Assembly: GCF_008065095.1 (NCBI RefSeq)
Contig: NZ_CP042911.1
Location: forward strand, 3,630,001 to 3,662,000
DNA from: Gemmata obscuriglobus
GTDB lineage: Bacteria > Planctomycetota > Planctomycetia > Gemmatales > Gemmataceae
DNA: 32,000 nucleotides
Direction of reading: 5' to 3'
Both the position numbers and the translations under genes were made by a program. The notes beneath the pieces are model-generated. The model saw only the letters and a list, made by a program, of their open reading frames with translations. It was not told where the DNA came from and searched no databases. Positions 4,144-31,567 of the stretch are shown here, piece by piece (within the stretch, counting starts at the first letter, position 1; every line of letters begins with the position of its first letter).

Positions 4144-4159
4144 GTGGTCGCGCGACCAC
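4144..4159. repeat. palindrome copy (16/16)
   Basis: Intergenic, 25 nt before ATG 4185. Confidence 0.95.
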
Positions 4160-5209: not shown

Positions 5210-5557
5210 GTGGAAGTGTGGGCGGCGGTGCTGTCGGCCCTCGTGCAGTCGCGGGGGCACCCGAGGCCGGAACGCGAGTACCGGTTCCATTCGGACCGGA
5301 TGTGGCGGTTCGACCTCGCGTGGCCGGCGCTGAAGGTCGCGTTCGAGCGGGAAGGGCTCGCGACCAAGGGCGGGAAGTCGCGGCACACGACCAACGCCGG
5401 GTACGCGGGCGACATCGAGAAGTACAACGCGGCGGCACTCGCCGGGTGGGTCGTGATCCGCGGCACGACGCGGATGATCGAGAGCGGCGAGGCGGGGAAC
5501 GATCTGCTGACGGCACTCGAACTGGCGAGTGGTCGCGCGACCACTTTGGGGGAATGA
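5210..5557 (+). CDS. Vsr/DUF559-like PD-(D/E)xK endonuclease-fold protein
   Basis: Frame of ORF 5159..5557. GTG 5210 follows ACGGGAG by 7 nt; the alternative start is ATG 5168 (ATGA overlap). Motifs REYRFH..RFDLAWP..VAFEREG..GWVVIRG resemble DUF559/Vsr-type nucleases. Confidence 0.5.
   Translation: MEVWAAVLSALVQSRGHPRPEREYRFHSDRMWRFDLAWPALKVAFEREGLATKGGKSRHTTNAGYAGDIEKYNAAALAGWVVIRGTTRMIESGEAGNDLLTALELASGRATTLGE
5529..5544. repeat. palindrome copy (16/16)
   Basis: In the last codons of the nuclease gene (GRATT), 16 nt before ATG 5561. Confidence 0.95.
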
Positions 5558-8383: not shown

Positions 8384-8399
8384 GTGGTCGCGCGACCAC
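8384..8399. repeat. palindrome copy (16/16)
   Basis: 1 nt after TGA 8380-8382, 15 nt before ATG 8415. Confidence 0.95.
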
Positions 8400-8414: not shown

Positions 8415-11400
8415 ATGGCGATCGATAAGCCGGTTCTGTGGGGGGCGGACGGCAACCCTCTTTCCCAAGAGGGGGCGCTGCTCTCCCCGAACGCCCTGAA
8501 CGTCGCCCAGGTCATCCAGAACGCCGGGAAGATGTACTCGCACACGTGGGACGAGGCGATGCGGGACGCCCCGCAGAACGCCCTCGCCATGCGGCGCGAC
8601 CCGTTCTACCGGTCGATGCTGCAAGAGCGGACCTCGCCGACGCAGAACCTCGACTGGGAGGTGGCGGTTCCGAACGAGGACGATCCGGTCCACCGGTTGC
8701 AGCGGGACACGCTCCAACGCGCGTGGGAGGAGCTTCCGGACAAGCCGAACCTGATGTACTCGCTCCTCGACGGTGCCCTTTGGTGGGGGCGGTCCGGTCA
8801 GCAGGGCATGTGGGGCCAGAGCGACAGCGGGCTCACGAACTGGCTGTACCACGAGCCGGTCCACGGCGACTCGATTCAGCACCAGTGGGACCGCACGCCC
8901 GTCATTCTCGTGTCGTGGCAGGCGAAGCAGAAGTTGGAGCGGGACGACCCCGAGTGCATCATCAGCTCGTCCACCCGCGGGGCGTACGGGCTGCGGCTGT
9001 ACAAGCCCGAGTACCGCAAGCGGTTTATCCTCCACACCCACGTTCGTGAGGCGTCGGACTATTACGAAGGTGAGATGGCGGGCGGCGTCCACGGCGTCGG
9101 GCTCCGCTCGTGGGCGTACTGGGGCGATTACGTCCGCCGCGACATCCTCGCGGCGATGCTCGGGTTCATGAACTCGACCGGGATGATGGACCTCGTCATC
9201 ATCAACTACCCGGACGGCAACGTCGAGGCCGAAAAGCGGGCGATCGCGAACGCCAAGAAGATCAGCGGCAAGCTCGTGCTCATCTGCCCCCGCGACCCGT
9301 CGAAGGACTGGCCCGCGGTCGAACAGGTGCCGATGAACACCGCCGGCGTCGAGGTGGTGCAGAACCTGCTGGAGAACTACTTCGACCGTTACACGCGGGA
9401 GCTGTTCGTCGGGCAGAACATGAGCAACGGCGGCGGCGGGCCGGGCGGGCTGGAGGGCGATGGCCGCGCCGAACTGGCCGGCGATACCAAGTTCCAACTC
9501 TGCAAGACGGACGCCCGCCGCTTGGCCGAGACGCTCACGCGGGACTGGCTCGTCCCGTGCCGGGATTACAACTTCCCCGGCTCGAAGGTGCCGGTGACGA
9601 TGAAGCCCATCCTGGCCGATCCCAAGGCCAAGGAGAAGGCACAGAACATTAGCGTCTGCGTCGCCAACGGCATCGAGATCGAGGAAGACGAGGCACGCCG
9701 GGCGTTGGGCTTCTCGAAGCCGCGAGAGGGCAAGAAAACGATCGGGGCGAAGCCGGCGGCCGATCCGACGAACCCGACCGCACCACCGGGCGACGGCGGG
9801 GCGGTCGCGCGCCCACCCCAGCCCCCGAAGCCGGACGGCGGGCACGACCTCGCGACCGACTTCCTCCAGCGGATCGGGCGGCTGGAAGATCTGCTCATGT
9901 ACCGGCTGAACCAGCCGCCGTGGCCGGGTGCGGTGTTCGACGAACAGCGCCACCGCTGGGTGAACAAGGACGGCAGCGACGGGCCGCAAGGTGGTCGCGC
10001 GACCACAGCCGGGAACGGTAACGGCCAACCGGCCCCGCAGCTCGGCGACGCGGACCGGGACGACATCGCCAACGGCATCGACGCCGACGTGCGGGCCTGG
10101 AAGGGTGAGGAGATCCCGCCCGGACTCGTGCAGCGGGCGAAGGACGTGGCACTGACGATTGCGGCCAAAACCTACATCTGGGCGACGCAGGCCACGCACT
10201 CGAAGGCAATGGCGACGCTCGGCGAGGTGATGGGGGCCGTGTTCGACACGCCGGCCGACATGATGAAGTTGGGGTACAACCCGTCCACGTCGAGCGGCAC
10301 GTCCGGTGCGGGCGTGGCCGATCCGGTCAAGGCGAACCTGAACGACGCGTTCGGCGTCGGCGTGTCCGGTCACCTCGTCGCGTCCGTCGCGTCGAAGGTG
10401 CTGGTGAAGGCGGCATATTGGGTGCGGAACCGGACGCAGAAGGGCGAGCAGCCGACCGCCCTCTCTTTGGTGGCGTTGCTGTACGAAGGCGACCAAGAGC
10501 CGGACGGGTTCTTCGAGTGGGCCGAGTTCATCGCGACCGTGCTTCAGAGGACCGCAAAGGGGATCGGCAGCGACGCCCAGATGCCGGACGCGGCGACCGT
10601 CGAGCGGAACCTGCGGGCGCTGGTGGAAGAACGCCAGAAAGCCGAAGGGGACGACGACCTCACCGGGTACGCGTGGGACGAATCGCAGGTCAAGCGGGAC
10701 GGGGACGGTCAGTTCGCCCCGAAGAACGGTGGGGAGTACGGACCCGACCACCCCCGCACCCGCAAGGGGCGGCCGGTGCCGCGGTCCGCAATCCGTCTGG
10801 CCGCCACCTCCCCGGACGATGCCGACGAGATCCGCAAGCGGTTGAGCGTTCCGGCCGAACGCGAGAAGTTCGACGCGGCGGTCAAGGCCGAGAAGCGACG
10901 GATCGGTGACGCCCGCCGCAAGAAGCGGCTCGACCTCGCCGGCAAGGCCGCCGCCGCCGAAGGCGACCGGATCGGCAAGATGCCCGCCGCGGCCCGCCGG
11001 CTCAAACTCGACGGACTCGCGGCCGAACTCTCGCAGGCGGCGAACGCGATCCGATCGGCCCACACGGTCAAGCAGGCCAAGACCGAACTCAAAGCGGTCA
11101 AAAAGCGAATCGCGACGGCCGCCAAGGATGTTCGCAAGGCGTTCGGGGAAGAGGCAACTCGGTACGCCGGAACACTCGGCGTACCGGACCGGATTGCCAA
11201 GGAGATCGGTCGCGGCATCGCGTCGGCCGCCAAATACGACAACGTTCCGCCGCTACCAACGGACGCGATCGAAGACGCTCTGGGCGAAGTAAACTCGGCA
11301 TGGAGCAGCGGTCGCCGACGCGACGCCTTGAAGAACCTGACGGACGCGTTCGACGCGTCACTCGACACCTCTCGTGTTGCGGCGGCCGTTAAGGATTGGG

Positions 11401-12512
11401 CCGGGGATGGCGGGTACGCACGGGAAATCCTCGAACGGGCTCTCGAACTGCGGGTGGACGAGATCGACCCCAAGCGGGGCGAGTCGGCCGCCGCGTACAA
11501 ACAGCGGCTCGAGAACGACCACGGGTTCAAAAACCTGCCGCAACCCGAGGCGGGTGAGAGTGCGAAAGACTACTCCTACACGCCGGACATTGAGAACACG
11601 CGGTCCGATCGGAGCGACGCCGTCGCCGCGAATTGGCTCAGCGGGTTCGCCGACCACATCGCGAAAGCGTTCGGGAGTGGTCGCGCGACCACCTCATACG
11701 ACTGGGATGCGGGCGACCACCCACGCGGCCAGCCCGACAACGCCGGCCAGTTCGCACCGAAGGGCGGCGGCACAAAGGAGAGTGGCGACCGCCCAAAAGC
11801 TGACGCCGGTGGTCGCGCGACCACCGGCAACCTCCGGGACCGCCTGAACGATAAAGACGACCCGATCAACGCCGACGCGGGCCGTAGCGGTCGCGCGACC
11901 ACGCATGCGGATAAGGCGTCCAAACGGAATCGCCCGAAAGCCGTCGGGGTTGCGGGCGTGGTGGATGTGGCCCGGTCGCGGCGGATCAAGAAGGCTCACA
12001 AGGTCGAGCAGGAGGTCGCGGTCGCAGTTGAAGGGGCGAACCTGCCCGACAGCGAGCCGGCGGACGTGGTGTACATGCCAGACGCTCGGGGCAAGCCAAT
12101 CACGGACCCGGCCGAATCGAAGCGGTGGCTCGCCCAACGTGCCAAGGTACTTGCCGCTCACAACAAGCGGCAGGCGGGACAGGAACTCACCGCTGCCGAA
12201 CGGTCATTGGCCGAGGTGGCAGAAACGGTGCTGTCGAATCCGGCCCACTTCTTCGAGGTAAAAACCTTGCAGAAGGCACGACAGAACCGGGTGCGGATGA
12301 CTGCCGACGCCCTCGATAAGAAACGGGCATGGCAGGCGAAGTACAACGTGGTATTCTCCGTCGTCATCGTTGACGAGCGGAAGGGCTCGAAGCACTCGGG
12401 ACACCGAGTCTACGTCGCCCCCGCCACGCTCGAAAAGACGGTGTCGCTCGCCGATTGTGTAAAAGTCGGCAGCATCGCAGAGGTGCTCAAACACGCCCGG
12501 GGTGGCTCGTGA
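8415..12512 (+). CDS. portal-containing giant head protein (portal-like N-terminus plus long C-terminal extension)
   Basis: Uninterrupted 1365-codon frame with high GC3, directly downstream of terL. The portal call for the first ~460 aa rests on synteny only. Low-complexity linkers carry 5 copies of the 16-bp palindrome. Confidence 0.5.
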   Translation: MAIDKPVLWGADGNPLSQEGALLSPNALNVAQVIQNAGKMYSHTWDEAMRDAPQNALAMRRDPFYRSMLQERTSPTQNLDWEVAVPNEDDPVHRLQRDTLQRAWEELPDKPNLMYSLLDGALWWGRSGQQGMWGQSDSGLTNWLYHEPVHGDSIQHQWDRTPVILVSWQAKQKLERDDPECIISSSTRGAYGLRLYKPEYRKRFILHTHVREASDYYEGEMAGGVHGVGLRSWAYWGDYVRRDILAAMLGFMNSTGMMDLVIINYPDGNVEAEKRAIANAKKISGKLVLICPRDPSKDWPAVEQVPMNTAGVEVVQNLLENYFDRYTRELFVGQNMSNGGGGPGGLEGDGRAELAGDTKFQLCKTDARRLAETLTRDWLVPCRDYNFPGSKVPVTMKPILADPKAKEKAQNISVCVANGIEIEEDEARRALGFSKPREGKKTIGAKPAADPTNPTAPPGDGGAVARPPQPPKPDGGHDLATDFLQRIGRLEDLLMYRLNQPPWPGAVFDEQRHRWVNKDGSDGPQGGRATTAGNGNGQPAPQLGDADRDDIANGIDADVRAWKGEEIPPGLVQRAKDVALTIAAKTYIWATQATHSKAMATLGEVMGAVFDTPADMMKLGYNPSTSSGTSGAGVADPVKANLNDAFGVGVSGHLVASVASKVLVKAAYWVRNRTQKGEQPTALSLVALLYEGDQEPDGFFEWAEFIATVLQRTAKGIGSDAQMPDAATVERNLRALVEERQKAEGDDDLTGYAWDESQVKRDGDGQFAPKNGGEYGPDHPRTRKGRPVPRSAIRLAATSPDDADEIRKRLSVPAEREKFDAAVKAEKRRIGDARRKKRLDLAGKAAAAEGDRIGKMPAAARRLKLDGLAAELSQAANAIRSAHTVKQAKTELKAVKKRIATAAKDVRKAFGEEATRYAGTLGVPDRIAKEIGRGIASAAKYDNVPPLPTDAIEDALGEVNSAWSSGRRRDALKNLTDAFDASLDTSRVAAAVKDWAGDGGYAREILERALELRVDEIDPKRGESAAAYKQRLENDHGFKNLPQPEAGESAKDYSYTPDIENTRSDRSDAVAANWLSGFADHIAKAFGSGRATTSYDWDAGDHPRGQPDNAGQFAPKGGGTKESGDRPKADAGGRATTGNLRDRLNDKDDPINADAGRSGRATTHADKASKRNRPKAVGVAGVVDVARSRRIKKAHKVEQEVAVAVEGANLPDSEPADVVYMPDARGKPITDPAESKRWLAQRAKVLAAHNKRQAGQELTAAERSLAEVAETVLSNPAHFFEVKTLQKARQNRVRMTADALDKKRAWQAKYNVVFSVVIVDERKGSKHSGHRVYVAPATLEKTVSLADCVKVGSIAEVLKHARGGS
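9801..9816. repeat. palindrome copy (14/16), in CDS
   Basis: gcggtcgcgcgcccac; read as AVARPP in the 1365-aa ORF. Confidence 0.7.
9991..10006. repeat. palindrome copy (16/16), in CDS
   Basis: Read as GGRATT in the 1365-aa ORF. Confidence 0.95.
11677..11692. repeat. palindrome copy (16/16), in CDS
   Basis: Read as SGRATT in the 1365-aa ORF. Confidence 0.95.
11809..11824. repeat. palindrome copy (16/16; 22-bp palindrome 11806-11827), in CDS
   Basis: Read as GGRATT. Confidence 0.95.
11887..11902. repeat. palindrome copy (15/16), in CDS
   Basis: gcggtcgcgcgaccac; read as SGRATT. Confidence 0.9.
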
Positions 12513-17098: not shown

Positions 17099-17114
17099 GT
17101 GGTCGCGCGACCAC
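17099..17114. repeat. palindrome copy (16/16)
   Basis: 14 nt before ATG 17129. Confidence 0.95.
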
Positions 17115-19094: not shown

Positions 19095-19201
19095 TTCAAC
19101 CGAGGCGGAAGAATCATTAGGGGTGGTGAACTTTTGATCATCTAGCGGGCGAGTCTGCGAATGCCATACTGGATGACATCTCGTCCAGTGGTAATTTGCC
19201 C

Positions 19202-19897
19202 ATGATGACCACACGCTGCCCGGGGTGTTCGGTTCTCGTTCGCGTGTCTGCGGAAGCAGCGGCGGCGGACCCTGCGTGTCCCCGATGCAGCTCTCCGTTA
19301 ATCTTGACCGTTGACGAGCCGAAGCCGATCACACGACCCAAATCAGCTCCTGTAGTGAACGAGCCCCCGCAGGAACGAGATTGGGAACCCGAACCGGAGC
19401 CGGAACAACCGGAACGGGAAGAGCCTGATCCCTACTACCGTCCGATTCGCCGGCGAAAAAAGAAGGGGCCACCGGTACTCGCCATTGCGACTGTTGGCGT
19501 TCTGTTCTTGGTTGCGATCGTGTCCGTTGTGGCGCTGCTGAACCGGGCCAAAAACGTTCAGGATCAGGCACGGGCAGCATCACAGAAGGGAACTGTTAAG
19601 AGCAGCCCACCGGTTCATTCCGAACGACCGATCGAAACACCAGTGCGGGCGACCGATTACAAGGACGAACTCGACCGCGAGGATTCGGAGCGGTTCGTAA
19701 CCCGAATACTCGCCCTTGCAATCGGTCTGCCGATCTACCTGCTTCCGACGGGCGTGGCGGTGTTTCGCCGGCACAACAATCTGGCTCCGATCGTGATAGT
19801 CAACGTGTTCCTCGGGCTCATTTTCGTCGGCTGGGTCGTCGCTTTGGCATGGTCCGTTTCCGACATGCGGCCCATGCGGACCGAGCGACCGGTTTGA
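19202..19897 (+). CDS. zinc-ribbon / transmembrane protein with C-terminal superinfection-immunity (T4 Imm-like, PF14373-type) domain
   Basis: N-terminus CPGC..CPRC. C-terminus IYLLPTGVAVFRRHNNLAPIVIVNVFLGLIFVGWVVALAWSV closely follows the Imm_superinfect pattern. Confidence 0.6.
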   Translation: MMTTRCPGCSVLVRVSAEAAAADPACPRCSSPLILTVDEPKPITRPKSAPVVNEPPQERDWEPEPEPEQPEREEPDPYYRPIRRRKKKGPPVLAIATVGVLFLVAIVSVVALLNRAKNVQDQARAASQKGTVKSSPPVHSERPIETPVRATDYKDELDREDSERFVTRILALAIGLPIYLLPTGVAVFRRHNNLAPIVIVNVFLGLIFVGWVVALAWSVSDMRPMRTERPV

Positions 19898-21501: not shown

Positions 21502-22049
21502 TCAGCCCCGACCACTGATAGCCTCAACGACACATGCTGCGATGCTCTCGTAACGGGCCACCGCCGCTTCCTCTACTCGCTTGCGACCGGCCCAGACGCC
21601 GACGAAGGTGCGGTAGGGGAGTCGAGCGGGATCGAGGGCGAAGCCCGCGGCGGCGAGATCGAGAAAGGGCGGGCACTTGCGGCGAGTTGCTGCAAGAACG
21701 CCAGGAATCTGAACAGCACAAGCAGTCGCTCAGCTTCCGTCAGTCCGGCCGCCCCGTCCAGCGGTCGCAGCCCGAACATGGCGTCCGCGGCCTTGACGAG
21801 TGCCGTCACTGCGTCCGCTTTCTTCTGCTTCATGTCGGCGGCGACGGGCGTACCGGCCATTGCGGCGGCGAGGTCCGCCGGCACCTCGTGCGCGAGCACC
21901 CGGAGCCGATCCTCGTAGTCCGGGCACGATTCTTCGAGGACCCGGCCCGCAACCATCGGATCGGCCCGCCGTGTCGCGGTGCCGTCGAAGTACGCGAAGA
22001 TCTGCCGCTGGTGGTCACGCGACCACCAGCGGCGAAGGAAACCGAACAT
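21502..22049 (-). CDS. tail assembly chaperone, -1 frameshift fusion (GT-like), predicted
   Basis: The -1 frame is open from the slip site (21663-21669) to TGA (21504-21502). It has no start codon of its own. It encodes the protein-like sequence LDLAAAGFALDPARLPYRTFVGVWAGRKRVEEAAVARYESIAACVVEAISGRG. Confidence 0.5.
21573..22049 (-). CDS. tail assembly chaperone (G-like, 0-frame product)
   Basis: Lies between the tube-like and tape-measure-like genes. Contains an in-phase C_CCT_TTC slippery heptamer. Confidence 0.5.
   Translation of the reverse strand: MFGFLRRWWSRDHQRQIFAYFDGTATRRADPMVAGRVLEESCPDYEDRLRVLAHEVPADLAAAMAGTPVAADMKQKKADAVTALVKAADAMFGLRPLDGAAGLTEAERLLVLFRFLAFLQQLAASARPFSISPPRASPSIPLDSPTAPSSASGPVASE
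21663..21669 (-). other. -1 programmed frameshift slippery heptamer C_CCT_TTC
   Basis: + strand gaaaggg. The phase is exactly X_XXY_YYZ relative to the chaperone 0 frame (codons P128 F129). Confidence 0.55.
22011..22026. repeat. palindrome copy (15/16), in CDS
   Basis: gtggtcacgcgaccac; read as WWSRDH near the chaperone N-terminus. Confidence 0.85.
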
Positions 22050-22061
22050 GCTGCTACCTCG

Positions 22062-22568
22062 TTACAGGGCTCGGGTGTAGAGCGGGGTGTTGACCGCCGA
22101 AACGGTGGACGCGGGCGCGAACGGCCACGCGAAAAACGTGAGGTTCACCGGCTTGTTGCCCACGGACATCGGGATGCGGGCGTTCGGCCGGAGAACGCAG
22201 TGCAAGAACTTCCACGGGGTGTCATCGGACGCCGCAATGCCGATGGCGAAGTCGTCCCCGTTGGTTCCCACGAGTCGGCCGGGGGTGTTGAGCTGGCCTG
22301 CGGCCCCGCGGTTGCCCCGGTTGAGCACCTTGGTCAGGACGGCCGGGTCGATACTGATGAGCGGGCAGGTGATCGTCGCCACCTCCCCGAAGTCTTGAAG
22401 CTCGTGGGGCGTCATCTCACCGAACACGTCGGAGAAGATCTCCTTGTAGTTCTTGCTGATGTCGATATCGACCCCGCCTTGGGCGTACCCGAGCATTTCC
22501 TGCGCGGCGGCCGTGCCGGTGTAGGAATACACGATCGCCGGCCCCGTCCGCCAAAAACCGACCGCCAT
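22062..22568 (-). CDS. tail tube-like protein (by synteny)
   Basis: 168 aa, first gene of the minus-strand operon, upstream of the chaperone and tape-measure-like genes. Confidence 0.4.
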   Translation of the reverse strand: MAVGFWRTGPAIVYSYTGTAAAQEMLGYAQGGVDIDISKNYKEIFSDVFGEMTPHELQDFGEVATITCPLISIDPAVLTKVLNRGNRGAAGQLNTPGRLVGTNGDDFAIGIAASDDTPWKFLHCVLRPNARIPMSVGNKPVNLTFFAWPFAPASTVSAVNTPLYTRAL

Positions 22569-22598
22569 GGCAACGCCCCCAAAAATCTAACGGCTACT

Positions 22599-22606
22599 AT
22601 ATGGTA
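22599..22606 (-). promoter_or_regulatory. CGGCCA-TACCATAT box for the minus-strand tail operon
   Basis: The minus strand reads palindrome-cggcca-TACCATAT, about 30 nt before ATG 22568. Confidence 0.4.
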
Positions 22607-22612
22607 TGGCCG

Positions 22613-22628
22613 GTGGTCGCGCGACCAC
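22613..22628. repeat. palindrome copy (16/16) in divergent intergenic region
   Basis: 17 nt before ATG 22646; 6 nt from the minus-strand TACCATAT box. Confidence 0.95.
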
Positions 22629-22645
22629 TTCCGGAGGGGGCTCAA

Positions 22646-24532
22646 ATGTCGGTCATCGAATACAACTCGATCCGGTTCCACTTCGCCAAAACCGCGAGCG
22701 TCGAGTTCGATACGTCCCGCGACAAGAGTGGCGTGGACGTGATCGCCAACACGACCACGATCCGGGCTCGCGGCGTCGCCTCGCTCACCTCGCAGGTGCC
22801 GGGCGATTCAGCCGCCTTGCTGCCCACCATCCGACACATGCTGAACATGCCCCGGCGGCGACTCCTGTATCAAGTGGGGGGATACACCATCATCTCCCAA
22901 TCCGGGATGGACGCCCAGCTCGGGCCGACCCCGGTCAAGCCCGCCACCGTCGAGCCGGCGGGCAACGGCACCTTCTTCGTGGACGTGGCGTACAAGGTCA
23001 GCACCTACGACTGTGGCGAGGCGGCCTTGTCCGACCCCGTTACCTCCCTCCGCTGGACGCAGTCCGAGAGCTTCGACGACCGCTGGTTCTCCACCATCAC
23101 CACGTCCGGCACCCTGACCGTCCGGAGCGACCTGAACCAGTGCGCCGACAACTTCCGGCAGTTGGCGACGCCCCCGATCCTCGACGACTACCAACGCGTG
23201 TCCGCCAAGTACACCCTCGCACCCGACGGGCTCAGCCTGGACTTCGAGTTCACCGACCAAGAGAAATCGCTTCTCCCCCCGTACCCGGCCGTAGTTGCTG
23301 ATGGCGATTTTAACGTCATTTGCCCGCAGAACCATAAACGCACAGGAGTAGTCACAATCACGCTCGAAGGGGCAAAGGGGTGTAGTCGGAAAGACCTGAT
23401 GTTCGTTGGGCTGCGGATGGCAATCGCGAAACTCAAAGCCGAAGGATTCATCGACGGCTCCCCTCTCATGTGGGGCAATTTCTCGGAAAATCTGTTCCGG
23501 CCAGTAGTGAAGGTAAGTGTCCAGGCACTTCTCGCCACACTCGGTGGGACTGGTTTCGCTGGTGCGGCGGCGGCTAGTCTCGGCGCCGCCGCGGCCGGGA
23601 TGAATGGCCCGGCGGTGATGCGGAGCGTCGGCTACACGCCAGGAGTGCAGGAGGGCCGGTCGGGAATCGCCCCGCCGGTCCGTAAGCGGTTGCTCGGGCT
23701 CCTGGCCGCCGCGTTCCGAGACCCATGTGCGGCCAGCGAGGGCTTCACGGCCGAGCTGCGGAACGACCGTGGCGGATCGGGGTCCAACGCCGAACTCTCG
23801 ACCGGCGGTGCGTCACTCTCCACACCGCCCGCCGAACTCGTGACCGGAACGACCGGCGGGGCCGGCACATCCCCGATCAAGGACTACGCACCGTATGACC
23901 TGTACCGCATCCAGTTCGAGTACACGCAAGATACGGGGAAGCGGGTGATGCCGGGAACCGGCGTCGGTGACACGCCCCAGCGGGGCACGGCGGTGACCGT
24001 CCACGGGGGGCAAATGTTTCTGGAGGTAAGTTGGGCATGCCAGAGAACTGGCAGGCCGCCCCAGATCCCGTCGTTCTCCGTGAACGATCCGAACCTCGTT
24101 GCCATTGGCGGGACGTGCATCCCGGCCGAGATGCAGCTTTCCGCGGACGGGAGCGCCCCGACGTATCGCGTCGCCGGCCACTACATCTATGGCGTGTTGG
24201 ACCCGTCATTGGTGTCACTCACGGCCCCGGTGCCACCATATTTCAGCGATGGCGTGCTCACCACCGCACCGAACATCGCCAACTTTACGGCCCCCGTTGT
24301 CCGGACCGGGAGCAGCGGCTCCGGGTACAGCGGTGGGGGGGACTACGGAAGCAACATCTTCGTTCCTGAGCGCGAGCCCTCGCTTTCCGTCGAGCCCCCG
24401 TCGCAATTGGACCTGTTCGGCATCCCCGGCCCGATCGGCGGCGGGTTTCCGTTCGCCGGCCCTCCGGGTGGGTTGGGCTCTGGCGATACGGGGGGCGGCG
24501 GGCTCCTTCCCACAAACCCCGTGAACCCGTAG
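22646..24532 (+). CDS. large virion (tail/baseplate-like) protein, hypothetical
   Basis: ATG 22646 follows GGAGGGGG, within ORF 22601..24532. 628 aa with a Gly-rich C-terminus. Carries two sequences homologous to array spacers. Confidence 0.6.
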   Translation: MSVIEYNSIRFHFAKTASVEFDTSRDKSGVDVIANTTTIRARGVASLTSQVPGDSAALLPTIRHMLNMPRRRLLYQVGGYTIISQSGMDAQLGPTPVKPATVEPAGNGTFFVDVAYKVSTYDCGEAALSDPVTSLRWTQSESFDDRWFSTITTSGTLTVRSDLNQCADNFRQLATPPILDDYQRVSAKYTLAPDGLSLDFEFTDQEKSLLPPYPAVVADGDFNVICPQNHKRTGVVTITLEGAKGCSRKDLMFVGLRMAIAKLKAEGFIDGSPLMWGNFSENLFRPVVKVSVQALLATLGGTGFAGAAAASLGAAAAGMNGPAVMRSVGYTPGVQEGRSGIAPPVRKRLLGLLAAAFRDPCAASEGFTAELRNDRGGSGSNAELSTGGASLSTPPAELVTGTTGGAGTSPIKDYAPYDLYRIQFEYTQDTGKRVMPGTGVGDTPQRGTAVTVHGGQMFLEVSWACQRTGRPPQIPSFSVNDPNLVAIGGTCIPAEMQLSADGSAPTYRVAGHYIYGVLDPSLVSLTAPVPPYFSDGVLTTAPNIANFTAPVVRTGSSGSGYSGGGDYGSNIFVPEREPSLSVEPPSQLDLFGIPGPIGGGFPFAGPPGGLGSGDTGGGGLLPTNPVNP

Positions 24533-24541
24533 GATGGGTTT

Positions 24542-25081
24542 CCTTCAATTCGGCCACGGGCTTACACCCGTGGAGAGCGGCCCGGCTTCGGCACCAGACT
24601 CGCCAGTAAGGCGCTTCAATTCGGCCACGGCGTTCAACCCGTGGAGACTCGGTCAGCCCGGCCGTCCCGTCCAGCGGCTTCAACCCGCTTCAATTCGGCC
24701 ACGGGTGCAAACCCGTGGAGAGGGCTGGTGACGATCGAATCGCTTCCGAAACGTCGCTGCTTCAATTCGGCCACGGGGGTCAACCCGTGGAGAGGCGACG
24801 CCCCCGATCCTCGACGACTACCAGCGGACGCTTCAATTCGGCCACGGGTGCAAGCCCGTGGAGAGACCGCTCGCCGTTCGATCGTGGCATAATTCGAGCC
24901 TGCTTCAATTCGGCCACGGAGATCAGCCCGTGGAGACCTCCCCGATACGGGACTACGCACCGTATGACCTGTAGCTTCAATTCGGCCACGGGAATCAACC
25001 CGTGGAGGTGGCTTCTTCGCTACACGGTAACACTCCGCACACGCCACTTCAATTCGGCCACGGGTGCGAATCTGTGGGGAG
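24542..25081. CRISPR. orphan CRISPR-like array, 8 repeats / 7 spacers, no cas genes in window
   Basis: 36-nt repeats at 24542, 24613, 24687, 24759, 24830, 24902, 24974 and 25046. Consensus GCTTCAATTCGGCCACGG-N7-CCCGTGGAGAG. Spacers are 35, 38, 36, 35, 36, 36 and 36 nt. The last repeat is degenerate (TCTGTGGGGAG). Confidence 0.8.
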
Positions 25082-25125
25082 CTTACCCCCGCTTGCGATC
25101 CGCCGCAACATCCGATCCGCCCGGA

Positions 25126-25308
25126 TCACTCCCGTGCGAACACGCAGCACACGAGCGCGACGAGCGTCGTGAACGTGGCGATACACGCGGCCGAGAACAA
25201 CCCGTACAGACCGCTCAGGGCGACGATCGCCCCGTACATCGCACCGCCCAATCCCTGGCGGGCGACGCGGCGGGCACGGACCAGAAAACGCGGGATGCTG
25301 ATTCTCAC
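25126..25308 (-). CDS. small single-pass membrane protein (60 aa)
   Basis: Minus-strand GTG 25308 follows CGGAG and lies 24 nt downstream of a palindrome copy. TM segment GAIVALSGLYGLFSAACIATFTTLVALVCCVF. Confidence 0.45.
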   Translation of the reverse strand: MRISIPRFLVRARRVARQGLGGAMYGAIVALSGLYGLFSAACIATFTTLVALVCCVFARE

Positions 25309-25332
25309 AGTGGGCTCCGGGTTGGGGGCGAA

Positions 25333-25348
25333 GTGGTCGCGCGACCAC
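25333..25348. repeat. palindrome copy (16/16; 20-bp palindrome 25331-25350)
   Basis: Between minus-strand genes, 24 nt upstream of GTG 25308. Confidence 0.95.
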
Positions 25349-25349
25349 T

Positions 25350-25628
25350 TCAGTTGGTGGCGTTCTTCGCGGTGCAGATCGGGCACCCCGGATCGGGGCG
25401 GTGCGGGTGCCGCGGGCAACACGTCGTCACCCGCACCGCGAACGTGCGATACCGGCACTCCTCGCAGTCGCAGTCGCCCATCGGCACGTCCCCGCGGTGA
25501 CCGCACTCGTAACAGTACGTCGGCACGTTCGCGTACACGCGGTTCAGCGTCTTGCACCACGAACACGCGGTCCGGTGGATGGTGCCGCAGACCGGCTCGT
25601 CGGTCCGCAGGGCGTGACGGTTCGGCAT
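25350..25628 (-). CDS. Cys-rich zinc-binding small protein (92 aa)
   Basis: Minus-strand ATG 25628 lies 7 nt after AAGGAG. More than 12 Cys in CxxC-type pairs (CSWC, CYEC, CDCEEC, CPIC). Confidence 0.6.
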   Translation of the reverse strand: MPNRHALRTDEPVCGTIHRTACSWCKTLNRVYANVPTYCYECGHRGDVPMGDCDCEECRYRTFAVRVTTCCPRHPHRPDPGCPICTAKNATN

Positions 25629-25713
25629 GACGGGTCTCCTTGGTTCGGTCACGCGGATGGTATCGGTTGTTGCGGAATTCCGTAATGTCAGTGGCGAGTT
25701 GTTGAACTGAAGC

Positions 25714-25986
25714 TCAGACATTCAGTGGTCGCCAGTCGCCCCACTGGTTGTTGCGTTCCATCCAGGCCGATGCGACGAACCGGCCGTCTGTCGTCCGCAC
25801 CCACACCTCGGCCCGGGGCCGTTCCCACTCGTCGTTGGCCCCGATCCACACGATGCGCCAGCCGGGCGGCATGGGGCGGATGGGGGCCGGGAAACCGTCC
25901 GGAACCCAGAACGCGTCCGCGTAAACCGGTTGGTCGGCGGCGTCCAGTTCACGAATCCACTGAGGCACTTCGGAGCAGCGGGACAC
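25714..25986 (-). CDS. Trp-rich small hypothetical protein (90 aa)
   Basis: Minus-strand GTG 25986 lies 6 nt after GGAGG and 24 nt downstream of a palindrome. The upstream part of ORF 25714..26454 reads through the palindrome and is rejected. Confidence 0.5.
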   Translation of the reverse strand: MSRCSEVPQWIRELDAADQPVYADAFWVPDGFPAPIRPMPPGWRIVWIGANDEWERPRAEVWVRTTDGRFVASAWMERNNQWGDWRPLNV

Positions 25987-26010
25987 GGGCGTCCTCCGTT
26001 GGGGATGAAA

Positions 26011-26026
26011 GTGGTCGCGCGACCAC
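26011..26026. repeat. palindrome copy (16/16)
   Basis: Between minus-strand genes, 24 nt upstream of GTG 25986. Confidence 0.95.
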
Positions 26027-26027
26027 C

Positions 26028-26330
26028 TCAGAACGCCATCTCCACAACGTCCGCCCTCCGCTTCCGCCACTCGCCCCAACTCCGCGTCCGGTGCGACCAC
26101 GTGAGCGAGTACCGCCAGTCCCGGTCGTAATACACCACCCGCAGCGAGCCCGGCGGCGTCGCCATCACGCTCACGGGAACCAGACCCCGCGGCGGGCGGT
26201 TCCGGCCCCGCGGCAACCCGTCCACCCAACCGATACCCGTCAGGTGGATCTTCCCGTTCCGCATCTCGAACGGCACCGGAGACCACTTCAGCCGATTGAC
26301 CGATTTGCGAGAATTGAGTAACGTAGACAT
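26028..26330 (-). CDS. Trp-rich small hypothetical protein (100 aa), loosely similar to the preceding one
   Basis: ATG 26330 follows GAGGTG. The stop abuts palindrome 26011-26026. Confidence 0.55.
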   Translation of the reverse strand: MSTLLNSRKSVNRLKWSPVPFEMRNGKIHLTGIGWVDGLPRGRNRPPRGLVPVSVMATPPGSLRVVYYDRDWRYSLTWSHRTRSWGEWRKRRADVVEMAF

Positions 26331-26356
26331 CGAACACCTCTACACAGGGGTTCACC

Positions 26357-26389
26357 GGCCCCGGAGCGTGTATCAGACGCTCCGGGGCC
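26357..26389. promoter_or_regulatory. 13-bp-stem inverted repeat in the divergent regulatory gap
   Basis: ggccccggagcgt-gtatcag-acgctccggggcc. Confidence 0.4.
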
Positions 26390-26428
26390 AATTTCGTGTC
26401 GGGCAACCACCGCTCGACAGGGATACAA

Positions 26429-26469
26429 TAAGGCGACATGCCCTTGTTTGTCAAGGCGATGTCGCCTTA
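26429..26469. promoter_or_regulatory. operator-like inverted repeats upstream of the XRE gene
   Basis: TAAGGCGACAT (26429-26439) and ATGTCGCCTTA (26459-26469). Inner dyad AAGGCGA-TG-TCGCCTT at 26453-26468. TTGTCA at 26448-26453 is -35-like. Confidence 0.45.
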
Positions 26470-26487
26470 ATTCTTAGTAGGTGGGTT

Positions 26488-26757
26488 ATGGCCATCCCAG
26501 CCGTGGCGAAGAAAAACATCAGGACCGGCTTTGGGAAGCGACTCCGCGAGTTGCGGATCGACAAGAATTTGACTCAATCCCAGCTCGGTGAGCGTGCCGG
26601 GATGATGTACCAAGATGTAGCGAAACTCGAACGTGGCGAACGTGAGCCGATGTGGGCTACCGTCATTCGCTTGGCTGATGCTCTTGGCGTGCGGGCTGAT
26701 GACTTCCGCACGCTCGAAGATCCGTTGGCCGATCTCCCGGAGTTGCCGCTGGAGTGA
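26488..26757 (+). CDS. XRE/Cro-CI family HTH regulator
   Basis: In-frame ATG 26488. KRLRELRIDKNLTQSQLGERAGMMYQDVAKLERGEREP is a classic HTH_3 pattern. Confidence 0.8.
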   Translation: MAIPAVAKKNIRTGFGKRLRELRIDKNLTQSQLGERAGMMYQDVAKLERGEREPMWATVIRLADALGVRADDFRTLEDPLADLPELPLE

Positions 26758-26760
26758 GGA

Positions 26761-26776
26761 GCGGTCGCGCGACCAC
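26761..26776. repeat. palindrome copy (15/16)
   Basis: gcggtcgcgcgaccac; 3 nt after TGA 26755-26757. Confidence 0.9.
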
Positions 26777-26948
26777 TTCGCGTGGTGAACACATCGACAG
26801 CTTGCGTGGCGGGTTGCGGGTGCGATGATGTGGCGACCTCACGGGGTGCGTGGGGCGCGGCGTCTGCCCTCCGGTTGTCGTTTCTCGTACTAAGTGATAT
26901 CTAGACCGACTCCGGCCGACAGATTCCGGGGGCGATCCGAGTACCAGT

Positions 26949-30110: not shown

Positions 30111-30641
30111 ATGGCGGGCGGGCGGGAGTGGACGACGGGCGAGGAGGCCGAACTGAAACGGCTCCTCGCTGCCGGAACGAAGCTGGCGACCGTCGCCAAA
30201 CGGCTGAACCGGTCCTACTCGGCGGTGGCCCAGCGGGCGTTCCGGGTGTCGGGCCGGGAGCGGCTGCCCCGGCTCCACAAGGCCGGTGAGTTGGAGGAGC
30301 GGGTGCGGTCGCTTTCGGTTCCCGGCGTTCCTGACGCGGTGGTCGCGGGCATCCTGGGCGTGACCCGGCAGACCGTTCTGAAGACCCGCCAGCGGCTCGG
30401 TATCCCCCAGAGCGTACCGCCGAACGGGAAACTGCCCCGCGACCCGGCCAAGCGGTCGGACCTGTCGATCGCCGCGAAGGTGCTGTGGCTGTACTCGGGC
30501 GTCGGGCGGTCCGATGTGGTGATTGCGAAGCGGATCGGCGTGTCGAGAACGACCGTCCGCGATTACCGGCTCAAATTCAACCTGCCGGCGTTGGGCGAAC
30601 TGAAGTGTGGTCGCGCGACCACTACGGAGGTGCAGAAATGA
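30111..30641 (+). CDS. multi-HTH (Myb/SANT-like) DNA-binding protein
   Basis: ATG 30111 follows GGGAGG. WTTGEEAELKRLLAAGTKLATVAKRLNRSYSAVAQRA plus two further HTH-like segments. Confidence 0.5.
   Translation: MAGGREWTTGEEAELKRLLAAGTKLATVAKRLNRSYSAVAQRAFRVSGRERLPRLHKAGELEERVRSLSVPGVPDAVVAGILGVTRQTVLKTRQRLGIPQSVPPNGKLPRDPAKRSDLSIAAKVLWLYSGVGRSDVVIAKRIGVSRTTVRDYRLKFNLPALGELKCGRATTTEVQK
30607..30622. repeat. palindrome copy (16/16)
   Basis: In the last codons of the HTH gene (CGRATT), 15 nt before thyX ATG 30638. Confidence 0.95.
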
Positions 30642-31567
30642 AAGTCATCACCGAGCCTTCGGTTTACGTCTTGGGCCGACAAACGGTCGATCAGGCCGAA
30701 CTCGATCGATTTTTGGTCGACCACGGCGTGAGCTGGGAGAGTGACAGCGAGGTCGCTGGCGAAGTGCTCACGGAAACGGCGGGACGCGTCTGTTATATGT
30801 CGTTCGCGAAGCCGCGACCGGGCGGCAACAGCGCGTACCTGACCCACATCAAGGAAGTGGGGCACGGGAGCGTGCTGGAGCACGCGGTGTGGAACCTGCT
30901 CCTCACCGGGGTGTCGCGGTCGCTCACGCACGAGCTGGTGCGGCACCGCGCCGGGTTCGGGTTCAGCCAGCTCTCGCAGCGGTACGTGGACGAGTCGGTG
31001 GCCGAGTACGTGGAGCCCGACATCATCGCCCGCGACCCCGAGTTGCACGCGATCTGGCTCGAATCGGTGAAGCAGTCGCACGCGGCGTACATGAAGCTCG
31101 CCGACGCGCTCAGCGCGAAGCTAACGAACACGTTCGGTCCGTGCGACAACCCGAACTGTGAGCGTGGTTACCAAGCGGACCACCTGAAGGTTCGGACCTA
31201 TGTGGCTTGCCCCACATGCAAAGGGAGTCCCAGTAAGGCATGGTACGCTGCGCCGCTCGGTCGGTTTGTGCCGGGATGGGAGAACGGTCTGACCGCGACT
31301 GATCGCCGCAAGGCCGCGCGTCAGGCCGCGCGGAGCGTGCTGCCGAACGCCACCGAGACCAAGATCTTCATCACCGCGAACGCCCGTGCTCTGCGGCACT
31401 TCATGGAGCAGCGTGGATCGGTCCACGCCGAACCGGAGATTCGGAAGCTCTCGTGCGCGATCCTTGACGCGCTCCAGAAAGACGCCCCCAACCTCTTCAG
31501 TGACTACCAGAAGGTGCCCCTTCCCGACGGCACGTTTGAACTGGTGACGCAGTTCAAGAAGGTGTGA
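30638..31567 (+). CDS. thyX: flavin-dependent thymidylate synthase ThyX with an internal Cys4 insertion
   Basis: ATG 30638 (ATGA overlap, ACGGAGG SD). ThyX signature LTHELVRHRAGFGFSQLSQRY (RHRxxSxxxxSxR). 309 aa. Confidence 0.85.
   Translation: MKVITEPSVYVLGRQTVDQAELDRFLVDHGVSWESDSEVAGEVLTETAGRVCYMSFAKPRPGGNSAYLTHIKEVGHGSVLEHAVWNLLLTGVSRSLTHELVRHRAGFGFSQLSQRYVDESVAEYVEPDIIARDPELHAIWLESVKQSHAAYMKLADALSAKLTNTFGPCDNPNCERGYQADHLKVRTYVACPTCKGSPSKAWYAAPLGRFVPGWENGLTATDRRKAARQAARSVLPNATETKIFITANARALRHFMEQRGSVHAEPEIRKLSCAILDALQKDAPNLFSDYQKVPLPDGTFELVTQFKKV

What the first reader, a model, noticed from the sequence alone, without database searches (positions are those of the whole stretch)
23869..23904. 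Spacer 6 matches the same virion gene with a conservative codon change
Spacer 6 (24938-24973) is CTCCCCGATACGGGACTACGCACCGTATGACCTGTA. The gene at 23869-23904 reads ATCCCCGATCAAGGACTACGCACCGTATGACCTGTA. Identity is 32/36, with 24 contiguous identities at 23881-23904. In frame (..TSPIKDYAPYDLY..) the changes are ACA->ACC (silent), ATC->ATA (silent) and AAG->CGG (Lys->Arg). Again this is the signature of a homologous gene in a relative.
Basis: seen in the sequence. Interest (0 to 1): 0.85.

Follow-up and report, generated by a model that had tools for sequence, protein, structure and literature searches.

The report
Prophage CRISPR array aimed at relatives
A prophage of the planctomycete Gemmata obscuriglobus carries its own cas-less CRISPR array whose spacers, spacer 6 included, were copied from neighbouring genes of related phages, which is a known way for one virus to use the host's CRISPR machinery against its competitors.

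Summary
The best of 500 shuffles reached 26/37.

The array (24542-25080) has 8 repeats and 7 spacers and no cas genes nearby. It lies inside a Gemmata obscuriglobus prophage. Its repeat belongs to the family found next to type I-G cas operons in Gemmataceae, and the host has a complete I-G locus elsewhere. Repeat anatomy, host cas orientation and TTN flanks all indicate minus-strand transcription. The 23904 end of the spacer-6 match is therefore PAM-proximal.

Four of the seven spacers trace to three adjacent genes:
- Spacer 1 maps to the 168-aa gene, but of another allelic type.
- Spacer 2 maps to the 158-aa gene.
- Spacers 4 and 6 map to the 628-aa gene.

The 16 nucleotide differences fall in 12 codons, of which 8 are synonymous and 4 conservative (P=5e-5). 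The donors were therefore functional homologues in related phages.

Each self-copy lacks a recognition determinant. The spacer-6 site has a CGG flank instead of TTN, the spacer 2 and 4 sites have seed mismatches, and the spacer-1 site is 14/36.

This matches virus-borne mini-CRISPR arrays, so it is a new member of a known kind. Expression and interference are inferred, no perfect target was found, and the "virion gene" label is unproven.

The parts
24542..25080 (-). Orphan CRISPR array with 8 repeats of 35-36 nt and 7 spacers of 36-39 nt. In crRNA orientation the repeat reads (N)TCTCC-ACGGG-loop-CCCGT-GGCCGA-ATTGAAGC.
   Evidence: The repeat family lies next to type I-G cas operons. Orientation is set by the host cas gene direction and the ATTGAAGC handle. 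The RNA hairpins fold as expected.
24937..24973 (-). Spacer 6, the finding. The predicted crRNA guide is the reverse complement, TACAGGTCATACGGTGCGTAGTCCCGTATCGGGGAGG.
23868..23904 (+). Self-homologue of spacer 6 inside the 628-aa gene, 33/37 identical. The mismatches lie at guide positions 25, 26, 27 and 36, so the PAM-proximal 24 nt are perfect.
23905..23907 (+). PAM position of the spacer-6 self site. It reads CCG on the + strand, which is 5'-CGG-3' on the guide-like strand, and is not the AT-rich TTN expected for type I-G.
   Evidence: TTN and TAT PAMs for I-G are from PMC9638904 and PMC12915315.
22646..24532 (+). 628-aa conserved phage protein (WP_010036750.1, GobsT_31070), function unknown. 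It holds the homologues of spacers 4 and 6. The longest ORF starts at 22601.
   Evidence: No family or solved-structure match. BFVD hits are to uncharacterised phage proteins only.
24794..24829 (-). Spacer 4.
23164..23199 (+). Self-homologue of spacer 4, 32/36 identical. Mismatches are at guide positions 1, 2, 3 and 6 (the seed), and the flank is GAC.
24648..24686 (-). Spacer 2.
21735..21773 (-). Self-homologue of spacer 2 inside the 158-aa gene 21573-22049 (minus strand), 31/39 identical. A TTC flank is present, but guide positions 4, 7, 8 and 9 (plus 22, 30, 36 and 39) are mismatched.
24577..24612 (-). Spacer 1. It encodes RPGFGTRLASK, a motif of the 169-aa protein family in related phages.
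22156..22191 (-). Position homologous to spacer 1 in the carrier's own 168-aa gene (22062-22568, minus strand). It is only 14/36 identical and belongs to a different allelic type (RPNARIPMSVG).
24722..24758 (-). Spacer 3, with no target found. The same holds for spacer 5 (24865-24901) and spacer 7 (25009-25045).
25046..25080 (-). Repeat 8, the first in the direction of transcription. It is degenerate: the stem is broken, the handle is ATTGAAGT, and the fold is only -3.8 kcal/mol.
25126..26330 (-). Four small minus-strand genes directly upstream of the array, co-directional with it. The last one, 25126-25386, encodes a small hydrophobic protein and ends 45 nt before repeat 8. The array is probably read through from this operon.
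   Evidence: Gene calls, GC3 analysis, and no Pfam hits. Co-transcription is an inference.
26425..26454 (-). The only sigma-70-like promoter match in 24300-26900 (TTGACA-18-TATTGT). It is divergent from the HTH gene at 26488-26757 (+).

Best explanation
The window is a prophage of Gemmata obscuriglobus. Between the convergent ends of a conserved 628-aa gene and a leftward operon of small genes, it carries a cas-less, leader-less CRISPR array of the type I-G repeat family.

Proposed mechanism:
1. The array is transcribed on the minus strand, probably by read-through from the operon that starts at the divergent regulatory region near 26.4 kb.
2. The host's Csb2 (a Cas5/Cas6 fusion) would cut each repeat 4 nt after the 7-bp stem. 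This gives crRNAs with the 8-nt handle ATTGAAGC.
3. The host's I-G Cascade and Cas3 would then destroy incoming DNA that carries a matching protospacer next to a TTN PAM.

At least four of the seven guides were copied from three adjacent, conserved genes of related phages. The array would therefore exclude superinfecting or co-resident relatives.

The carrier's own copies of those genes are spared because each lacks one recognition determinant:
- The spacer-6 site has a perfect 24-nt PAM-proximal match but a CGG flank instead of TTN.
- The spacer 4 and spacer 2 sites have seed mismatches.
- The spacer-1 site is a different allele.

Shown: the array, its family, the host I-G locus, the origin of the spacers in homologous coding sequence, the flank and seed pattern, and selective conservation of the repeat's handle and stem.

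Inferred: transcription, processing by the host Csb2, interference, and the ecological role.
For: Array and family:
- There are 8 regularly spaced repeats with 36-39-nt spacers.
- The same repeat core occurs in 40 Gemmataceae/Planctomycetota genome loci.
- Long arrays of this family sit beside cas8g, cas7g, csb2 and cas4/1.
- The repeat has a 7-bp stem, then 4 nt, then an 8-nt handle. This is exactly the Csb2 cleavage geometry described in PMC9638904.

Host:
- The proteins of the window are G. obscuriglobus proteins on a 9.03-Mb contig.
- The host has cas4/1-cas2-cas3-cas8g-cas7g-csb2 and an array of at least 111 repeats.
- The prophage has no cas genes.

Spacer origin:
- Spacers 2, 4 and 6 match the window at 31/39, 32/36 and 33/37, against a chance maximum of 26.
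- The differences are biased to synonymous sites, P=5e-5.
- Spacer 1 encodes the relatives' version of the neighbouring 169-aa protein (BLOSUM score 54 against a null maximum of 39), while the own site is 14/36.

PAM and orientation:
- The cognate sites of spacer 1 in 8 relatives carry TTN on the guide-like strand, as do those of spacer 2 in the window, L055 and L058.

Self-avoidance:
- None of the 109 host chromosomal spacers hits the prophage.

Selection on repeats:
- In repeats 2-7 there are 14/42 loop differences against 1/168 outside the loop (Fisher P=3e-10).
- Spacers stay 80-89% identical to homologues whereas loops differ by 33% from consensus.

Recurrence:
- Related elements L009/L058 and L015 also carry mini-arrays with a spacer that imperfectly matches a gene 0.2-1 kb away in their own genome.

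Precedent:
- Medvedeva 2019 (PMC6858448) and the 2024 review (PMC11656645) describe the same pattern. This includes targeting of genes close to the array and point mutations in the carrier that prevent self-targeting.
Against: - No phage with a perfect protospacer was found. The nearest non-self homologue of the 628-aa protein is 60-63% identical among 5.8 billion proteins. The spacer-6 core is absent from IMG/VR and JGI metagenomes.
- The prophage repeats are only 27-30/37 identical to the host's own repeat. The stem is CCGCGGC in the host and CCACGGG here, and the loop differs. Processing by the host Csb2 is therefore unproven.
- The first repeat in transcription order is degenerate, and there is no host-type leader.
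- There are no expression data.
- TTN as the PAM for Gemmataceae I-G rests on two independent spacer sites here plus literature on other species.
- A seed-perfect self site with a non-PAM flank (spacer 6) could in principle trigger priming in type I systems.
Confidence: 0.62

Rival explanations
1. The array is a relic. A fragment of a type I-G array was captured from a former Gemmataceae host, or built there, and is now carried passively. It is not processed or used in G. obscuriglobus.
For: - The repeats resemble those of other Gemmataceae (29-32/36) more than the present host's (27-30/37).
- There is no leader.
- The transcription-proximal repeat is degenerate.
- Repeat loops are heterogeneous, unlike the uniform repeats of host arrays.
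- The array is identical in all assemblies, so there is no sign of turnover.
Against: - Decay is not uniform. The handle, the 4-nt linker and the stem are invariant in repeats 2-7 while the loop varies (P=3e-10).
- Spacers have not decayed at the loop's rate, and their differences from homologues are synonymous-biased.
- The host encodes a complete I-G system whose repeat shares the last 14 nt and the hairpin geometry.
Confidence: 0.2
2. The array is an RNA anti-CRISPR decoy. The eight repeats mimic host repeats and tie up Csb2 and Cas7 in unproductive complexes, protecting the phage from the host's I-G system. The spacers would be incidental.
For: - Repeat-mimicking RNAs in phages are known (Racr, PMC10651486, listed; summarised).
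- Selection acts on the parts that Cas proteins bind, not on the loop.
- The repeats are not identical to the host's.
Against: - Racrs are solitary repeat units, whereas this is a regular 7-spacer array with host-like spacer lengths.
- Four spacers have a specific origin in phage genes, with PAM-consistent flanks, and have been preserved.
- A decoy role could coexist with targeting.
Confidence: 0.08
3. The array regulates the prophage itself. Guides with partial matches to the prophage's own genes would direct Cascade to bind without cleavage, as crRNA-like regulatory RNAs do, to silence the adjacent gene module in lysogens.
For: - The three self-matches lie within 3 kb of the array.
- Spacer 6 has a perfect 24-nt PAM-proximal match with distal mismatches, a pattern that can allow binding without Cas3 recruitment.
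- Regulatory mini-arrays are known (10.1101/2023.03.03.530964 and 10.1101/2024.10.29.618823, listed).
Against: - No self site combines a TTN flank with an intact seed.
- Spacer 1 has no usable self site.
- The guides lie in coding regions rather than at promoters.
Confidence: 0.05
4. The array is a chromosomal host array that happens to lie next to, and self-target, an integrated prophage. Alternatively, the similarity is chance.
For: The window is part of the bacterial chromosome.
Against: - Phage genes flank the array on both sides.
- The same 38.6-kb unit assembles on its own in several runs.
- The host's real I-G array is elsewhere, next to cas genes, with a different repeat.
- Relatives have the same synteny without an array.
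- Chance is excluded by the shuffle control.
Confidence: 0.02

Closest known systems
Virus-borne mini-CRISPR arrays (SPV1/SPV2 of Saccharolobus, Medvedeva et al. 2019, PMC6858448; phage and prophage mini-arrays reviewed in PMC11656645)
   Same: - The array sits in a viral or proviral genome without cas genes, and its repeats belong to the host's CRISPR type.
- Spacers are derived from related viruses.
- Targets lie close to the array.
- The carrier's orthologous sites carry point changes or divergent sequence that prevent self-targeting.
- Like the phage mini-arrays cited there, this one has no leader.
   Different: - It has seven spacers rather than one or two.
- The repeats are not identical to the host's (73-81%), with two compensatory stem changes and a free-varying loop.
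- It belongs to subtype I-G in a planctomycete.
- No reciprocal partner virus or perfect target is known.
- There is no experimental support.
Canonical type I-G (formerly I-U) CRISPR arrays (Thioalkalivibrio sulfidiphilus, PMC9638904; G. obscuriglobus chromosomal array, L075)
   Same: - The repeat is 36 nt with a 7-bp stem, a 4-nt linker and an 8-nt ATTGAAGC handle.
- Spacer lengths are 36-39 nt.
- Cognate protospacers carry TTN flanks.
   Different: - There are no adjacent cas genes and no conserved leader.
- The repeats are heterogeneous in the loop.
- The degenerate repeat is at the transcription-proximal end.
- The array is located inside a prophage.
RNA anti-CRISPRs / solitary repeat units (Racr, PMC10651486)
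   Same: A phage-encoded CRISPR repeat mimic without cas genes.
   Different: Racrs are single repeats without meaningful spacers. Here there is a regular array whose spacers derive from phage genes.
crRNA-like regulatory mini-arrays (crlRNAs, 10.1101/2023.03.03.530964 and 10.1101/2024.10.29.618823)
   Same: Guides with partial complementarity to a nearby target.
   Different: The self sites here lack either the PAM or the seed, and they lie inside coding regions rather than at promoters.

Membership tests
CRISPR array of the type I-G repeat family | Regularly spaced direct repeats of about 36 nt separated by unique spacers of similar length. | tested here: met
   There are 8 repeats with start-to-start spacing of 71-74 nt and 7 unique spacers of 36-39 nt. 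Host I-G spacers are 34-41 nt with a mode of 36.
CRISPR array of the type I-G repeat family | The repeat sequence is shared with arrays that lie next to I-G cas genes (cas8g, cas7g/csb1, csb2, cas4-cas1). | tested here: met
   The core CTTCAATTCGGCCACGG..CCGTGGAG was found in 40 genome loci. L048 and L043 have cas8g, cas7g, csb2 and cas4/1 beside the array.
CRISPR array of the type I-G repeat family | The repeat RNA forms a 7-bp hairpin followed by 4 nt and an 8-nt 5' handle, which is the Csb2 cleavage geometry. | tested here: met
   Folds show 6-8-bp stems, then CCGA, then AUUGAAGC. The geometry is described in PMC9638904. Actual cleavage was not tested.
CRISPR array of the type I-G repeat family | Adjacent cas genes and a conserved leader. 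| tested here: not met
   There are no cas genes in the window. The leader motifs shared by L043, L048, L051 and L075 are absent. The array is an orphan.
CRISPR array of the type I-G repeat family | An AT-rich (TTN) PAM lies next to cognate protospacers. | tested here: inconclusive
   TTN is present at sites homologous to spacer 1 in 8 relatives, and at spacer 2 sites in the window, L055 and L058. True (perfect) protospacers were not found, and the self sites of spacers 4 and 6 have GAC and CGG.
Virus-borne mini-CRISPR array used in interviral conflict | The array is carried by a virus or provirus that has no cas genes of its own, in a host that has the matching Cas system. | tested here: met
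   Phage genes (TerL, portal, scaffold, adaptor) are identified. The window is a G. obscuriglobus prophage. The host I-G locus is shown.
Virus-borne mini-CRISPR array used in interviral conflict | The repeats are identical or near-identical to those of the host's arrays. | tested here: not met
   Identity to the G. obscuriglobus chromosomal repeat is 27-30/37. The last 14 nt and the geometry are shared, but the stem differs by two compensatory pairs and the loop differs.
Virus-borne mini-CRISPR array used in interviral conflict | Spacers match related viruses but not the carrier itself. | tested here: inconclusive
   The origin of 4 of 7 spacers in homologues of the carrier's genes is shown, and the self sites are disabled. 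No relative with a perfect match is in any collection searched.
Virus-borne mini-CRISPR array used in interviral conflict | The array has only one or two spacers. | tested here: not met
   There are seven spacers.
Virus-borne mini-CRISPR array used in interviral conflict | The array confers exclusion of the targeted virus. | not testable with these tools
   This needs infection or plasmid-interference assays.
RNA anti-CRISPR (Racr / solitary repeat unit) | A single repeat-like unit without a functional spacer that inhibits the cognate Cas complex. | tested here: not met
   This is a regular multi-spacer array with gene-derived spacers. Inhibition is not testable.
crRNA-like regulatory mini-array | The guide is partially complementary to a PAM-flanked site that it represses. 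| tested here: not met
   No self site has both a TTN flank and an intact seed.

The most novel reading that the evidence does not exclude
The array may be more than a weapon against relatives. Its crRNAs could act on the prophage's own genome. Spacer 6, with a perfect 24-nt PAM-proximal match and distal mismatches, could direct non-cleaving Cascade binding to the 628-aa gene and so control the adjacent gene module in lysogens. In that reading, the unusual repeats (loop free to vary, stem changed by compensatory pairs relative to the host) would reflect adaptation of a phage-owned guide cassette to this dual use or to several host I-G systems.
Probability: 0.05. Interest if true: 0.75.

Novelty: new member of a known kind. 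Interest (0 to 1): 0.45.

Why it matters
This is a clear bacterial example of a provirus carrying CRISPR guides against its own kin, in the genetically tractable model planctomycete Gemmata obscuriglobus. The host has a complete type I-G system, which is the least studied type I subtype.

The example is unusually informative. Seven guides are present and four can be traced to three adjacent conserved genes. The carrier's own copies show three different ways of escaping self-targeting: loss of the PAM, seed mismatches, and allelic replacement.

The repeats also separate constrained positions (handle, linker, stem) from free ones (loop). That amounts to a natural mutagenesis map for Csb2 recognition.

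The finding does not change concepts, because interviral CRISPR conflict is already described.

Tried and rejected
Search for the donor or true target of spacer 6:
- The 24-nt core is absent from IMG/VR and from JGI metagenomes.
- A protein-based locus search found no close relative in IMG/VR.
- Alignment-based searches found only relatives of 35-44% identity.
- Among 5.8 billion proteins the nearest non-self homologue is 60-63% identical.
- INPHARED phages gave no match by protein or DNA.

Spacers 3, 5 and 7:
- No target was found in the window, in the 5.8 kb upstream or 2.5 kb downstream of it, in 15 related loci at nucleotide or peptide level, or in IMG/VR.

Host spacers against the prophage:
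- 566 spacers from Gemmataceae arrays and 109 from the G. obscuriglobus array gave only 13-18-nt chance matches. A PAM could therefore not be derived that way.

Function of the 628-aa protein:
- There was no Pfam or PHROG hit.
- The AF2 model had pLDDT 59.
- There was no significant PDB fold or sequence match.
- BFVD hits were to uncharacterised phage proteins.
- The 'virion' label therefore remains a guess from position.

Other checks:
- Rfam gave no family for the repeat.
- Plus-strand transcription of the array was rejected. The handle would be at the wrong end, host cas operons point the other way, and the flanks give no motif.
- ORF 21534-22742 (+) as the target of spacer 2 was rejected. 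It is an Arg-rich wrong frame, and the real gene is 21573-22049 on the minus strand.
- An array at the same locus in relatives was not found. L055, L057, L067-L071 share the four-gene synteny but have no repeats.
Full report
**1. The observation**

The two sequences are exactly as quoted. 24938-24973 against 23869-23904 gives 32/36 identity. With the repeat taken as 35 nt, the spacer is 24937-24973 and the match to 23868-23904 is 33/37, with 24 contiguous identities at 23881-23904. The repeat finder reports the pair on its own (family D4). In 500 shuffles of the spacer scanned over both strands of the window, the best score was 26/37. In the reading frame of the gene the differences are two silent changes and Lys>Arg.

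**2. The array**

Positions 24542-25080 hold eight repeats with a period of 71-74 nt and seven spacers of 36-39 nt. On the + strand the repeat reads GCTTCAATTCGGCCACGG, then 7 variable nt, then CCCGTGGAGA.

The 17-nt core plus the 3' arm was found in 40 loci of Gemmataceae and other Planctomycetota genomes, and in three IMG/VR contigs. Long arrays of the family are internally uniform. They lie beside cas8g, cas7g, csb2 and cas4/cas1, which is subtype I-G.

In those loci the cas genes point so that the repeat reads ...CCGTGGCCGAATTGAAGC. The window's array is therefore transcribed on the minus strand. In that orientation each repeat has a 7-bp stem, then 4 nt (CCGA), then ATTGAAGC. This is exactly the geometry by which Csb2 produces an 8-nt 5' handle in the characterised I-G system (PMC9638904). 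The RNAs fold accordingly. Rfam has no family for the repeat.

**3. Where it sits**

The window encodes:
- a helicase-methylase, a sliding clamp and a sigma factor
- a large terminase and a 1365-aa portal
- a scaffold, a head-tail adaptor, a superinfection-immunity protein and ThyX
- several HTH regulators

No Cas protein is present.

Exact look-ups show that its proteins are Gemmata obscuriglobus proteins located on a 9.03-Mb contig (WP_010036750.1, WP_010036791.1 and others). The same 38.6-kb unit also assembles separately in several sequencing runs. The array is identical in all assemblies. The array therefore lies inside a prophage.

The host has a complete I-G locus elsewhere: cas4/1, cas2, cas3, cas8g, cas7g and csb2, with an array of at least 111 repeats reading GTTCTCCGCGGCTCATAGCCGCGGCCGAATTGAAGC.

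The prophage repeats share the last 14 nt and the hairpin geometry with that repeat. They differ by two compensatory stem pairs and in the loop. Identity is 27-30/37 to the host repeat, against 29-32/36 to the common Gemmataceae repeat.

The conserved I-G leader motifs are absent upstream of the prophage array. Repeat 8, the first in transcription order, starts 45 nt after the stop of a small minus-strand gene. The only sigma-70-like promoter in the neighbourhood is at 26454-26425 on the minus strand, divergent from an HTH gene. Read-through from that operon is the likeliest source of a precursor, but this is an inference.

**4. What the spacers are**

Three spacers match the window itself, all within 3 kb of the array:

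| Spacer | Self site | Identity | Gene |
|---|---|---|---|
| 2 | 21735-21773 | 31/39 | 158-aa gene, minus strand |
| 4 | 23164-23199 | 32/36 | 628-aa gene |
| 6 | 23868-23904 | 33/37 | 628-aa gene |

The 16 nucleotide differences fall in 12 codons. Eight are synonymous and four are conservative. Random placement of the same number of changes gives 10.6 non-synonymous codons on average, and 4 or fewer in 5e-5 of trials.

Spacer 1 has no nucleotide match in the window, but in one frame it encodes RPGFGTRLASK. That is the motif of the 169-aa protein encoded next to the 628-aa gene in other members of this phage group:
- L065 has RPGFGTRLATK (score 54 against a null maximum of 39).
- L063, L064, L071, L067 and L069 carry similar versions.

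The window's own 168-aa protein has RPNARIPMSVG at that place, and the DNA is 14/36 identical.

The four-gene module (about 360, 158 and 168 aa on one strand, 628 aa on the other) is syntenic in relatives, including two prophages of Gemmata sp. G18. None of those carries an array.

Four of seven spacers therefore derive from homologues of three adjacent conserved genes, and at least one comes from a phage with a different allele. Spacers 3, 5 and 7 have no detectable source.

**5. PAM-proximal end and self-avoidance**

With minus-strand transcription, the guide for spacer 6 is the reverse complement of the + strand. The PAM-proximal end is the 24973 / 23904 end.

Sites homologous to spacer 1 in eight relatives are followed, on the guide-like strand, by TTN. 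So are the spacer 2 sites in the window, L055 and L058. TTN is the PAM reported for I-G. B. lactis I-G uses TAT, which is also AT-rich.

The carrier's own sites look like this:

| Spacer | Mismatched guide positions | Flank |
|---|---|---|
| 6 | 25, 26, 27, 36 | CGG |
| 4 | 1, 2, 3, 6 | GAC |
| 2 | 4, 7, 8, 9, 22, 30, 36, 39 | TTC |
| 1 | site is 14/36 identical overall | TTG |

Every self site lacks either the PAM or the seed. For spacer 6 specifically, protection would rest on the PAM alone. A donor gene with a TTN PAM would read ...GAC CTG TAY AAR, that is Tyr-Lys/Asn where the carrier has Tyr-Arg.

None of the 109 chromosomal host spacers derives from the prophage, so there is no trace of self-priming.

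**6. Are the repeats under selection?**

In repeats 2-7 the 7-nt loop differs from consensus at 14 of 42 positions. The remaining 28 positions differ at 1 of 168 (Fisher P=3e-10). All eight loops are different, unlike host arrays.

Spacers remain 80-89% identical to homologous coding sequence, with synonymous-biased differences. They have therefore not decayed at the loop's rate. This argues that the handle, linker, stem and spacers are maintained while the loop is free. I have no explanation for why the loops diversified so far.

**7. Recurrence**

Two other elements of the same phage group carry small arrays of this repeat family, each with a spacer that imperfectly matches a gene close by in its own genome.
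- In L009/L058, whose homologue of the 628-aa protein is 41% identical, spacer 2 has 25 exact contiguous nt in common with a site 1 kb away. It is completely different over the 11 PAM-proximal nt.
- In L015, a single spacer encodes PDGTFKLVTQF, the C-terminus of ThyX. It matches the window's thyX at 27/34 and its own adjacent thyX at 22/34.

**8. Comparison with what is known**

This is the pattern described for virus-borne mini-CRISPR arrays. In those, the virus has no cas genes, the repeats are of the host's type, and spacers are directed against close relatives. Targets lie near the array, and the carrier carries point changes or deletions that prevent self-targeting (PMC6858448; PMC11656645).

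The differences here are:
- seven spacers instead of one or two
- repeats not identical to the host's
- a hypervariable loop
- subtype I-G in a planctomycete
- no known partner virus

The rivals are a non-functional relic, a repeat decoy of the Racr kind, and self-regulation by partially matching guides. They are weighed in the report sections. None is excluded by experiment, but each fits fewer of the observations.

**9. The target gene**

The 628-aa protein has about 20 homologues, all from Gemmataceae genomes or metagenomes. It has no Pfam or PHROG family. The AF2 model was poor (pLDDT 59). There was no PDB match by fold or sequence. In BFVD there were strong matches only to uncharacterised proteins of uncultured tailed phages. 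It is a conserved phage protein, but 'virion gene' is unproven.

**10. Verdict**

The whole feature is a prophage-borne, cas-less type I-G array that most likely uses the host's Cas proteins against related phages.

It is a new member of a known kind. It is of moderate interest because of the host (a model planctomycete with an I-G system), the number of traceable guides, and the informative repeat variation.

Noticed in passing
Whole window, e.g. 4144-4159, 5529-5544, 8384-8399, 17099-17114, 22613-22628, 25333-25348, 30607-30622: The perfect 16-bp palindrome GTGGTCGCGCGACCAC occurs 29 times (at most 1 mismatch) in 32 kb, against 0.01 expected. Most copies sit in intergenic gaps 14-29 nt upstream of start codons on either strand. 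It is also present in related phages and prophages (L055, L057, L067-L070) but not in the host cas locus (L075-L077). It looks like a phage-family-wide start-associated regulatory element. From memory, it is reminiscent of the start-associated sequences of cluster K mycobacteriophages.
   Followed up: partly
24560-24566, 24631-24637, 24705-24711, 24777-24783, 24848-24854, 24920-24926, 24992-24998, 25064-25070: The 7-nt hairpin loop differs in every one of the eight repeats, while the handle, linker and stem are invariant in repeats 2-7 (P=3e-10). Host arrays of the family have uniform repeats. The cause of this loop diversification is unexplained.
   Followed up: partly
L009 1326-1482 (= L058 760-935); L008 1194-1300: In two IMG/VR mini-arrays of the same repeat family, the terminal repeat carries the reverse complement of the inner hairpin of its neighbours. 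L009 has CAGACCG against CGGTCTG, and L008 has CTGTGCAG against CTGCACAG. This looks like the hairpin centre having been inverted.
   Followed up: no
L015 330-440 and 570-1213; window 31522-31555: A Planctomycetia MAG contig carries a two-repeat mini-array about 150 nt from a thyX that is 80% identical to the window's. Its single spacer encodes the ThyX C-terminus. It is closer to the G. obscuriglobus prophage thyX (27/34) than to its own (22/34).
   Followed up: partly
8415-12512: There is a very large portal-family protein of 1365 aa. It matches phrog_113 over its full length (1603 bits), with Portal_Mu only in the first 430 residues. The protein is therefore a long fusion or extension.
   Followed up: no
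19196-19897: A membrane protein with a C-terminal Imm_superinfect domain (PF14373) is encoded here. It is a second, protein-based candidate for superinfection exclusion in the same prophage. A homologue is also present in relative L057.
   Followed up: no
Window 1-30709 and upstream (L054, L072, L078): The prophage assembles as a separate contig of 38,620-38,621 bp with the same end (window position 30709) in independent G. obscuriglobus sequencing runs, although it is also part of the 9-Mb chromosome. This may reflect an excised or replicating form, or merely an assembly break.
   Followed up: no
24532-24542: The stop codon of the 628-aa gene is only 9 nt from repeat 1, and no terminator-like site was found. 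Plus-strand read-through would therefore produce RNA antisense to the crRNA precursor.
   Followed up: no
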